A DNA stretch of 64,000 bases from the IMG/VR virus record IMGVR_UViG_2859810971_000007, one strand, 5' to 3'. Under the pieces are notes generated by a model that ran no database searches, was not told the DNA's origin, and saw only the letters and a program-made list of their open reading frames with translations. Positions within the stretch are counted from its first letter, which is position 1, and the number at the start of each line of letters is the position of its first letter. The DNA comes from a virus. Its lineage: Duplodnaviria > Heunggongvirae > Uroviricota > Caudoviricetes. A program made the translations under genes and the position numbers. Below, one piece after another: positions 53,109 to 54,130 of the stretch.

Positions 53109-54130
53109 TGCCCACTGAATGAGCCTATTCTTTTAGCTGATGGGACATGGACTACTCACGGGAATGTAAAAATTGGCGATCAGGTGGCGTCAGTAGACGG
53201 CAATCCGTCAACTGTCACTGGGATATTCCCGCAGGGTGTTAGAGATGTTTACCGAGTCACATTTGAAGATGGTCGTTATGTTGATTGCGCAGGCGATCAC
53301 CTATGGGAGGTCACTAGTCGTGGATTCACGAAAGGCGAGAAACGCCGCGTGATAGATACCTTCGGGTTGAAGCGGTTGAGTGAAACGAAGAGGCACAAAA
53401 ATGGCGTTAGGATTCCTGAAATAACTGGTGACTTTGGCGACCACTCAGAGCCATTAGCATGGGTTATCGGCTCCCTTCTCGGGATGGTAGTCTTAGCAAT
53501 GGGAGCGTGAAGTTTTCAAACGTCGAGCCATACATGATCGAGCGTATGAAGGCTGAACTGCCTGATTACAACTTCTCTGGAGATGGTAAGGACTGGCTGA
53601 TATCAACGGCGCGTGGTCAGGTAAATCCACTCATGGAGACCCTGCGAGGTTATGGACTAATGGGGTGCACAGCAAAAAACAAATTCATCCCTCGTGTGTT
53701 TTTTTCCGCAAATAAATCAACGCGTATAGGCATGCTGTGTGGTCTGCTTGAAACGGATGGGTATGTCGAGAAGGATGGAACGCTTGTTTTTTCCTCAGCA
53801 AGTGAAGAACTGCGCAATGGGGTTGTTCAACTGGTTAACTCACTCGGCGGGTCATGCCGGACGCGAGTTAAAACTGGCGTGACATACACATACAAGGACG
53901 ATAAGCGGCATGGGATGGATTCATACGAGGCAAGAATCAGACTGACAAGAGAAATCAGGGAGGCCATCCGTTCACCACGACTCAATGGCAGATTAACTGC
54001 GCATCGATTCGAGGGCTGTGGGGTATTCGTCAGGAATGTTGAAAAAATCGGCAATGCAGAATGCTTGTGTATTATGGTCGATCACCCTCGCCACCTGTAT
54101 GTAACCAGGGGATATGTGGCGACGCATAAC
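53109..54130 (+). other. intein with LAGLIDADG-type homing endonuclease, inserted just after the GxxGxGKA P-loop-like motif
   Basis: Starts Cys (CPLNEPILLADG), block-B-like DCAGDHLWEV, LAGLIDADG motifs (SLLG[D]GSL, MLCGLLETDGYV), ends HN before Thr (YVATHN|TEVV); 1-nt frameshift at G-run 53481-53483. Confidence 0.7.

What the first reader, a model, noticed from the sequence alone, without database searches (positions are those of the whole stretch)
53109..54130. Intein with LAGLIDADG homing endonuclease inside a prophage primase-helicase
The primase-helicase frame (51993-56151) is interrupted at codon 373, just after the GxxGxGKA P-loop-like motif, by a ~341-codon insert. The insert starts with Cys (CPLNEPILLADG), has a block-B-like DCAGDHLWEV, two LAGLIDADG-type motifs and ends HN before Thr, and the helicase motifs resume after it. 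Inteins are uncommon in enterobacterial genomes. The endonuclease carries a 1-nt frameshift (G-run 53481-53483), so it is decaying or mis-sequenced.
Basis: partly seen in the sequence, partly recalled or inferred. Interest (0 to 1): 0.7.

Follow-up and report, generated by a model that had tools for sequence, protein, structure and literature searches.

The report
Decayed class 3 intein in prophage helicase
The insert is a real self-splicing protein element (an intein with a homing endonuclease) in the ATP-binding loop of a prophage primase-helicase, but it belongs to an already catalogued family, starts one codon earlier than reported, uses the atypical "class 3" chemistry, and sits here as a dead copy in a wrecked Shigella prophage.

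Summary
The finding is real but already known. Compared with the intein-free allele (phage mEp043 gp55), the gene at 51993..56151 carries one clean insert of 342 codons at window 53106..54130. The insert lies between Lys371 and Thr of the Walker A motif GHGK|T.

- **Class.** It has every sequence signature of a class 3 intein: non-nucleophilic residue 1, Trp67 in block B, Cys322 in block F, Thr340-His-Asn342, and Thr at +1. Its best solved-structure match is the class 3 MchDnaB1 intein, and these residues align one to one.
- **Endonuclease.** A two-motif LAGLIDADG endonuclease is nested inside. The AlphaFold model matches PI-SceI.
- **Frameshift.** The 1-nt deletion (GGGG to GGG, 53481-53483) is confirmed. 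It removes the catalytic Asp of LAGLIDADG motif 1 and everything after it.
- **Missed lesion.** An IS911 copy at 54585..55833 also splits the helicase.
- **Prophage state.** The prophage has lost its xis-to-O region and is rearranged by IS600.
- **Prior record.** Intact copies occur in 79 of 5,426 complete E. coli genomes and in phages Min27, phi24B and phiKp_30. Tori et al. 2010 and Smith et al. 2012 already report this intein family.

The parts
51993..53105 (+). N-extein: toprim primase domain and the start of the helicase domain, ending at Lys371 of Walker A (GVNGHGK)
   Evidence: Pfam Toprim_2 E 1.8e-11. Collinear with mEp043 gp55 and phiKp_30 BEI45467.
53106..54130 (+). Intein: 342 codons in intact relatives, 1025 nt here because of a 1-nt deletion. 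A Hint splicing domain is split by a LAGLIDADG endonuclease domain.
   Evidence: Single 1026-nt gap between phiKp_30 and the intein-free mEp043. Junctions shown. PDB phmmer matches to class 3 inteins and PI-SceI. AF2 model and Foldseek.
53106..53108 (+). Intein residue 1 = Ala (non-nucleophilic). Cys at 53109-53111 is residue 2.
   Evidence: Junction alignment. Relatives all have Ala straight after the Walker A Lys, and residue 2 is M, Q or I in them.
53298..53306 (+). Block B His65-Leu-Trp67. Trp67 is the W of the class 3 WCT triplet (block B position 12).
   Evidence: HMMER alignment puts these on His65/Trp67 of MchDnaB1, 6RIX. Residue roles from PMC7664689 and PMC2807308.
53460..53494 (+). 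LAGLIDADG motif 1 (WVIGSLLGDGSL in intact copies). Broken here by the deletion of one G at 53481-53483, which removes catalytic Asp127.
53508..53510 (+). Premature TGA that ends the frameshifted product (505 aa: primase plus the first 126 intein residues, the frame shifting at Asp127, plus 8 out-of-frame residues)
53729..53767 (+). LAGLIDADG motif 2 (GMLCGLLETDGYV), now out of frame with the gene start
   Evidence: Pfam LAGLIDADG_3, 35.2 bits against a cut-off of 22.5. The Thr-Asp of the motif is invariant in alignment A1.
54068..54070 (+). Cys322, block F position 4: the predicted class 3 nucleophile
   Evidence: Aligns with Cys124 of MchDnaB1. Conserved in P0004, P0006 and the Stx2_EH1965 DnaB intein.
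54122..54130 (+). Thr340-His341-Asn342: block G, with the T of the WCT triplet and the terminal Asn
   Evidence: Aligns with Thr143-His144-Asn145 of MchDnaB1.
54131..54133 (+). Thr+1: first C-extein residue and the Thr of Walker A GHGKT
   Evidence: mEp043 reads GHGKTEVV.
54131..54584 (+). C-extein part 1 (helicase ATPase core up to ...DVKGSG)
   Evidence: Pfam AAA_25 and DnaB_C on the spliced sequence. Alignment.
54585..55833 (+). IS911 (1249 bp) inserted in the helicase. The target duplication GGAG lies at 54581-54584 and 55834-55837.
   Evidence: 99.1% identical to elements annotated 'IS3-like element IS911 family transposase'. Ends and duplication.
55834..56151 (+). C-extein part 2 (AITGLTDNLF... 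to the stop)

Best explanation
The segment 53106..54130 is a full-length class 3 intein with a nested two-motif LAGLIDADG homing endonuclease. It is inserted between Lys and Thr of the Walker A motif (GHGK|T) of a lambdoid-prophage toprim primase-helicase.

In intact copies (phi24B, Min27, phiKp_30, 79 E. coli genomes) the inferred mechanism has five steps:
1. Residue 1 is Ala, so the usual acyl shift at residue 1 cannot happen. Instead the block F Cys322, activated by His65 and Trp67 and positioned with Thr340, attacks the Lys371-Ala1 peptide bond and forms a thioester-branched intermediate.
2. The N-extein is passed to the side chain of Thr+1.
3. Asn342 cyclises and releases the intein.
4. 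An O-to-N shift yields a helicase with a restored GHGKT P-loop, identical to the intein-free protein.
5. The freed intein's endonuclease cuts intein-free alleles at that site, and the element is copied in by recombination between co-resident lambdoid phages.

The window copy cannot do any of this. A 1-nt deletion at 53481-53483 removes the catalytic Asp of LAGLIDADG motif 1 and stops translation at 53510, long before Cys322 and Asn342. IS911 also splits the helicase. The prophage itself has lost its immunity and origin region. The window copy is a neutral, decaying remnant.

Shown here: the insertion boundaries, the motifs, the fold, the lesions and the distribution. Inferred from family knowledge: the chemistry and the homing.
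For: - **Clean insertion.** phiKp_30 against the intein-free mEp043 gives one 1026-nt gap, with exteins 98.7% identical. The junction reads aag|GCATGC...CATAAC|acc and cannot be slid.
- **Same-site polymorphism.** 210 complete E. coli genomes have the uninterrupted site, and 79 have the insert at 99% identity or more.
- **Class 3 signature.** The best PDB sequence match is the class 3 MchDnaB1 intein (6RIX, E 2.3e-9). His65, Trp67, Cys322 and Thr340-His-Asn342 fall on its His65, Trp67, Cys124 and Thr143-His-Asn145. The class 3 Msm DnaBi1 (6BS8) also matches. The class definition (no Ser/Thr/Cys at residue 1, WCT at B12/F4/G5, Thr or Ser at +1, mostly in helicase P-loops) is in PMC2807308.
- **Relatives agree.** Relatives at 32-51% identity in DnaB-type and PhoH-type ATPases all read GK|A....THN|T (where the C-terminal junction is on the sequence). 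Residue 2 varies among them.
- **Fold.** AF2 model with pLDDT 82.9 and pTM 0.84. It matches PI-SceI (E 3e-16, TMq 0.71-0.73) and class 3 mini-inteins (TMt 0.76-0.82).
- **Endonuclease.** Pfam LAGLIDADG_3 passes its cut-off.
- **Lesions.**
- **Prior reports.** PMC3430580 places an intein at residues 372-702 of phi24B P and names a S. flexneri prophage orthologue. PMC2807308 lists the Shigella prophage 'Primase' inteins as lacking the N-terminal nucleophile.
Against: - No splicing or cleavage experiment on this intein was found or could be run.
- Pfam Hom_end_hint is below its cut-off (25.5 bits against 32.1), so the Hint assignment rests on the PDB matches and the predicted fold.
- No phylogeny was made to place it inside the class 3 clade.
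- Cys at residue 2 is unusual among the relatives seen. A role for it is not excluded.
- The frameshift is seen only in this one assembly. It could be a homopolymer error.
- Intein and extein divergence between hosts are similar (97.5% against 98%), so recent independent homing is not demonstrated.
Confidence: 0.92

Rival explanations
1. It is a standard class 1 intein that begins at Cys (53109). It would splice through a thioester at residue 1 and leave GHGKA-T in the helicase.
For: Cys is present one residue after the Walker A Lys. CPLNEPILLADG resembles a block A.
Against: The intein-free allele has no Ala between Lys and Thr, so this reading would give a broken Walker A. All relatives start with Ala right after GK and have M, Q or I at position 2. 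With Ala as residue 1, His65 and Trp67 carry the same residue numbers as in the class 3 MchDnaB1 intein. The full WCT triplet is present.
Confidence: 0.04
2. The frameshift at 53481-53483 is an assembly error in a homopolymer, and the real genome has an intact intein reading frame.
For: The exact 505-aa truncated product is on record from a single contig, CP026810.1. Other S. flexneri copies of the same prophage gene read LLGDGSL intact. The change is a one-base loss in a run of four G.
Against: About 6.9 kb of unique prophage sequence compared with FDAARGOS_943 shows no other indel, so the assembly does not look indel-prone. The gene is already dead through IS911 and the prophage is defective, so a real mutation would be neutral. 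Either way the locus is non-functional.
Confidence: 0.25
3. The segment is a native domain of a longer primase-helicase variant and not a mobile insertion.
For: None beyond the annotation of the 968-aa proteins as a single 'toprim domain-containing protein'.
Against: Alleles that are 98% identical lack exactly these 342 codons. The segment has the Hint plus LAGLIDADG fold. It interrupts the Walker A motif.
Confidence: 0.01

Closest known systems
Primase/replication-protein P intein of Stx phages phi24B (vB_EcoP_24B) and Min27, and of S. flexneri prophages (InBase 'ShP-Sfv-... Primase' entries)
   Same: It is the same element. The DNA is 99.2% identical over intein and flanks, at the same site. 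Smith et al. give residue 372 as the start.
   Different: The window copy has a 1-nt deletion in LAGLIDADG motif 1 and an IS911 in the downstream helicase. Smith et al. gave the end as residue 702, whereas the alignment here gives 713.
Class 3 DnaB inteins: mycobacteriophage Bethlehem DnaB, M. chimaera MchDnaB1 (6RIX) and M. smegmatis DnaBi1 (6BS8)
   Same: Non-nucleophilic residue 1, the WCT triplet at equivalent aligned positions, THN|T or S, insertion in a helicase P-loop, and the Hint fold (TMt 0.76-0.82).
   Different: The solved constructs matched here are short chains (139-146 residues) with no endonuclease domain. This intein is full length with a LAGLIDADG domain. The host protein is a toprim primase-helicase rather than DnaB. 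Sequence identity is low. Cys sits at residue 2.
PI-SceI (yeast VMA1 intein) and other intein-encoded LAGLIDADG homing endonucleases
   Same: The overall two-part architecture and the endonuclease fold (Foldseek E 3e-16, TMq about 0.7). Phmmer matches the endonuclease domain at E 8e-8.
   Different: PI-SceI is a class 1 intein with Cys1 and Cys+1. Identity is only about 15%.
Class 3 intein in the DnaB-type helicase of other Stx2a-converting phages (for example Stx2_EH1965, L006:898-3291)
   Same: 50% identical over the full length, with the same K|A...THN|T P-loop junction and the same CLCIMV and HLW motifs.
   Different: The host helicase family is different (DnaB-like, not toprim primase-helicase).

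Membership tests
Intein (Hint-domain protein-splicing element) | Precise in-frame insertion in a conserved host protein that is absent from close homologues | tested here: met
   One 1026-nt gap against mEp043 gp55, with exteins about 98% identical. In E. coli genomes, 210 have the empty site and 79 the occupied site.
Intein (Hint-domain protein-splicing element) | Hint fold of the splicing domain | tested here: met
   AF2 model with pLDDT 82.9. Foldseek matches to PI-SceI, MchDnaB1 and Msm DnaBi1. PDB phmmer E 2e-9. Pfam Hom_end_hint is below its cut-off.
Intein (Hint-domain protein-splicing element) | C-terminal His-Asn followed by Cys, Ser or Thr at +1 | tested here: met
   ...ATHN|T at 54122-54133.
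Intein (Hint-domain protein-splicing element) | Uninterrupted reading frame through intein and exteins (needed for splicing) | tested here: not met
   The window copy has a 1-nt deletion at 53481-53483 and a stop at 53510, plus IS911 in the C-extein. The feature is met in Min27, phi24B, phiKp_30 and the E. coli copies.
Intein (Hint-domain protein-splicing element) | Demonstrated protein splicing | not testable with these tools
   No experiment on this intein was found. Smith et al. state that its function was not determined.
Class 3 inteins | Residue 1 is not Ser, Thr or Cys | tested here: met
   Ala1 (GCA, 53106-53108), from the junction with the intein-free allele.
Class 3 inteins | WCT triplet: Trp at block B position 12, Cys at block F position 4, Thr at block G position 5 | tested here: met
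   Trp67, Cys322 and Thr340 align with Trp67, Cys124 and Thr143 of MchDnaB1. Definition in PMC2807308.
Class 3 inteins | Thr or Ser at +1 | tested here: met
   Thr+1 at 54131-54133.
Class 3 inteins | Obligate block F Cys nucleophile and a second branched intermediate | not testable with these tools
   This needs mutagenesis of the intact allele.
Class 3 inteins | Placement inside the monophyletic class 3 clade | not tested
   No phylogeny was made. The nearest solved structures by sequence are class 3 inteins.
Class 1 (standard) inteins | Cys, Ser or Thr as intein residue 1 | tested here: not met
   Residue 1 is Ala. The Cys is residue 2 and is not conserved in relatives.
LAGLIDADG homing endonuclease (two-motif, monomeric) | Two LAGLIDADG motifs, each with a conserved acidic residue, in an endonuclease fold | tested here: inconclusive
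In the window itself, motif 1 is destroyed by the frameshift.
IS911 (IS3 family) | Near-identity to IS911, with terminal inverted repeats and a short target duplication | tested here: met
   99.1% identical over 1249 bp to annotated IS911. Ends read TGAAGTGG...CCACTTCA. The duplication is GGAG.

The most novel reading that the evidence does not exclude
The Cys next to Ala1 was not seen at that position in any relative examined. It might give the intact intein a second route to splicing or a redox switch, for example a disulfide with Cys322. Splicing of the replication helicase, and hence Stx-phage replication after induction, could then be controlled post-translationally. Smith et al. speculated on such control, and a redox effect has been shown for the class 3 M. 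smegmatis DnaBi1 intein. Nothing in the window supports this, because this copy is dead.
Probability: 0.05. Interest if true: 0.5.

Novelty: already known. Interest (0 to 1): 0.15.

Why it matters
It matters little as a discovery. The intein family, its site and its class are already in the literature and were in InBase. The useful result is a correction: the splice junction is K|A, not A|C, so the element is a class 3 intein that restores an intact GHGKT P-loop. Genome annotation calls these 968-aa proteins simply 'toprim domain-containing protein'. The window copy shows how an intein decays once its host gene stops being needed. The endonuclease is frameshifted, an IS element sits in the extein, and a sister lineage of the same prophage has IS911 inside the intein instead.

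Tried and rejected
- **Pfam on the raw ORFs and on the repaired intein.** Hom_end_hint stayed below its cut-off (25 bits against 32.1), so Pfam alone would not have proved a Hint domain. NCBIfam gave only weak matches to the intein parts of intein-containing proteins.
- **Large protein-database search with the repaired intein.** It returned only six hits, probably because of its word filter. They were still useful as distant relatives.
- **Tori & Perler 2011** (the class 3 phage-origin paper, PMC3133030) is not held, and the supplementary tables of Tori 2010 are not held. I could not confirm that the Min27 intein is listed there by name.
- **Base composition** of intein against exteins shows no difference (0.49 against 0.50-0.52).
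- **Indel rate of the assembly.** I tried to judge whether the frameshift is an assembly error. Only about 6.9 kb of comparable unique sequence was available and it holds no other indel. This is weak evidence either way.
- **Rejected readings:** a class 1 reading, a class 2 (KlbA-like) reading, because the WCT triplet is present, and a native-domain reading.

Full report
**What is in the sequence**

The + strand from 51993 to 56151 encodes a phage toprim primase-helicase, but not as one open frame. ORF listing gives a 505-codon ORF (51993..53510), a second ORF in another frame (53459..54676), two transposase ORFs (54621..54959 and 54986..55825), and a short C-terminal ORF ending at 56151. Pfam finds Toprim_2 in the first piece. 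It finds LAGLIDADG_3 and AAA_25 in the second. It finds HTH_Tnp_1 and rve in the transposase ORFs.

**Comparison with relatives**

A megablast of 53000-54300 against phage genomes gave two kinds of hit.
- Full-length matches at 97.5-99.2%: Min27, Stx2a_F403, Stx2a_F451, phi24B, phiXuzhou21 and Klebsiella phage phiKp_30.
- Matches to the two flanks only: mEp043, Sf101, APC_JM3.2 and others.

I fetched Min27, mEp043 and phiKp_30 and aligned the genes.
- phiKp_30 has an uninterrupted 968-codon gene. mEp043 has a 626-codon gene.
- The two differ by one gap of 1026 nt (342 codons), with 98.7% identity elsewhere.
- In window coordinates the insert is 53106..54130.
- The junctions read ...ggtcacggaaag|GCATGCCCA... 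and ...ACGCATAAC|accgaggtt.... The empty allele reads ...ggtcacggaaaa|acggaggtt.... The flanking bases differ from the insert ends, so the gap cannot be moved.
- At protein level the occupied allele is GHGK-[ACPLNEP...YVATHN]-TEVV and the empty allele is GHGK-TEVV.

**Lesions in the window copy**

Against phiKp_30 and Min27 the window differs by two events.
- One G is missing from a run of four: CTCGGGGATGG becomes CTCGGGATGG at 53481-53483.
- A 1253-nt insertion at 54581..55833 is a 1249-bp element plus a 4-bp duplication, GGAG.

The element is 99.1% identical to copies annotated as IS911. Putting the G back, and removing IS911 with one copy of GGAG, restores a clean 968-codon frame. The deleted base falls in codons 126/127 of the intein, inside SLLGDGSL. 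This is LAGLIDADG motif 1 with its acidic residue Asp127. Translation then ends at the TGA at 53508-53510.

**What the insert is**

- **Sequence match to solved structures.** A phmmer search of the repaired 342-residue insert against PDB sequences gave the M. chimaera DnaB1 intein as best hit (6RIX/6RIY, E 2.3e-9). PI-SceI followed (E 8e-8, endonuclease domain), then the gp41-1 intein and M. smegmatis DnaBi1 (6BS8, E 1.4e-6).
- **Catalytic residues.** 6RIX and 6BS8 are class 3 inteins. The paper on 6RIX names Cys124, His65 and Thr143 as the catalytic triad, with Trp67, as the WCT motif (PMC7664689). In the HMMER alignment my His65 and Trp67 fall on its His65 and Trp67. My Cys322 (in ECLCIMVDHPRHLYV) falls on its Cys124. 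My Thr340-His-Asn342 fall on its Thr143-His-Asn145.
- **Class definition.** Tori et al. 2010 (PMC2807308) define class 3 inteins by three features. Residue 1 is non-nucleophilic. A Trp/Cys/Thr triplet sits at block B position 12, block F position 4 and block G position 5. Residue +1 is Thr or Ser. [quoted passage not shown] This insert meets all of these.
- **Distant relatives.** A protein database search found relatives in a DnaB-like helicase (P0002 and P0005, 51% over 87% and 60% over 23% of the query), a PhoH-like ATPase (P0004, 32%) and another DnaB (P0006). All read GK|A... at the N-terminal junction. Where the C-terminus is present they read ...THN|T. Residue 2 is M, Q or I.
- **A second Stx-phage intein.** About 49 other Stx2a-converting phages carry a 50%-identical intein in a DnaB-type helicase. 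It has the same features: GMGK|AMAL...CADNHLWE...ECLCIMV...IVTHN|TEL.
- **Conclusion on Cys2.** The Cys at position 2 of the window intein is not a conserved nucleophile.

**Fold**

An AlphaFold2 model was built from the five-sequence alignment, with the repaired intein plus a few extein residues as first sequence. Its mean pLDDT is 82.9 and its pTM is 0.84. Foldseek against the PDB gave PI-SceI and other intein homing endonucleases at E 1e-14 to 3e-16, with TM-score 0.65-0.73 on the query. The class 3 mini-inteins MchDnaB1 and Msm DnaBi1 scored TM 0.72-0.82 on the target. Pfam on the repaired intein gives LAGLIDADG_3 above its cut-off (35.2 against 22.5) and Hom_end_hint below its cut-off (25.5 against 32.1). 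The spliced extein scores for Toprim_2, AAA_25 and DnaB_C.

**How it most likely works**

This section is inferred from the family and was not tested here. In intact copies the steps are as follows.
1. Cys322 attacks the Lys371-Ala1 bond.
2. The N-extein moves to Thr+1.
3. Asn342 cyclises.
4. The helicase is released with GHGKT restored, identical to mEp043 gp55.

The excised intein's LAGLIDADG domain would cut empty alleles and drive homing. In the window, translation stops after the first 126 native intein residues and 8 out-of-frame ones. Neither Cys322 nor Asn342 is made, and the helicase is also cut by IS911.

**Distribution**

Among 5,426 complete E. coli genomes, 79 carry the intein. 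All are at least 99% identical, and all listed rows span 1026 bp, which is the intact length. These are largely O157:H7 strains. A joined-flank query found the gene in 290 genomes, and 210 of them have the uninterrupted site. The 90% cluster of the protein has 1,494 members named from E. coli, S. flexneri, S. boydii and Salmonella enterica.

**Source and state of the prophage**

- The exact 505-aa product is on record from one contig only, CP026810.1 (4.53 Mb). Cluster names point to Shigella flexneri.
- An almost identical prophage in E. coli FDAARGOS_943 has int, xis, the early-left genes, cI, cro, cII, an O-like gene and then the intact 968-aa gene.
- In the window, IS600 (50518..51781) joins a truncated int directly to the region just upstream of the primase gene. 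About 10 kb, including the immunity and O genes, is missing.
- The terminase/portal region lies inverted at 22840..26042, next to another IS600 copy.
- The common S. flexneri version of this prophage (CP020753.1) shares the IS600 junction and is 99.9% identical. It has the intact GGGG, lacks IS911 at 54585, and instead has IS911 inside the intein at the equivalent of window ~53817.
- The gene therefore took different hits in sister lineages after the prophage had already become defective.
- The frameshift is private to this assembly. I cannot tell a real mutation from a homopolymer error. The other 6.9 kb of comparable sequence shows no indel.

**Prior knowledge**

Smith et al. 2012 describe an intein in phi24B P at residues 372-702, with an orthologue in a S. 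flexneri prophage. They say its function is untested (PMC3430580). Tori et al. [quoted passage not shown] That description fits the IS911-split version seen.

**Verdict**

The element is already known, and this copy is a decayed remnant, so interest is low.

Noticed in passing
window 54585-55833: IS911 (1249 bp, target duplication GGAG) is inserted in the helicase C-terminal region after ...DVKGSG.
   Followed up: yes
L009 (CP020753.1) 2993-4241, equivalent to window ~53817: In the common S. flexneri version of the same prophage (99.9% identical, with the same IS600 junction), IS911 sits inside the intein's endonuclease domain. The window's frameshift and its IS911 site are both absent there. 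These look like independent hits on the same dead gene. This version probably corresponds to the 'partial' Shigella primase inteins of InBase.
   Followed up: partly
window 4683-5946, 26042-27124, 39072-40336, 50518-51781, 59264-60533: There are five IS600 copies in 64 kb. The one at 50518-51781 joins a truncated lambda-type integrase directly to the primase gene, so about 10 kb (xis to the O-like gene) is missing relative to E. coli FDAARGOS_943. The terminase/portal block lies inverted at 22840-26042 beside another copy.
   Followed up: partly
L006:898-3291 (Stx2a-converting phage Stx2_EH1965): About 49 other Stx2a-converting phages carry a 50%-identical class 3 intein at the same K|T P-loop position of an unrelated DnaB-type helicase. 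Stx phages therefore carry one of two related inteins in two different replication helicases.
   Followed up: partly
L001 (Min27, EU311208.1) gene positions 2498 and 2511, equivalent to window 54489 and 54501: The Min27 record has two extra single bases that split its gene into 'P' and 'ORF31'. These are likely sequencing errors in that record, and they may explain the 87% identity to phi24B P reported by Smith et al.
   Followed up: no
window 53103-53105 and 54131-54133: The codons flanking the intein differ synonymously between alleles. Lys is aag in the window and Min27 but aaa in phiKp_30 and the empty mEp043 allele. Thr is acc in occupied alleles but acg in mEp043. This could bear on endonuclease target recognition or immunity.
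   Followed up: no
window 57126-57434 (-) and the downstream ORF: An HTH antitoxin-like gene is present. Next to it lies what FDAARGOS_943 annotates as a RelE/ParE-family toxin, within the nin region of the prophage.
   Followed up: no
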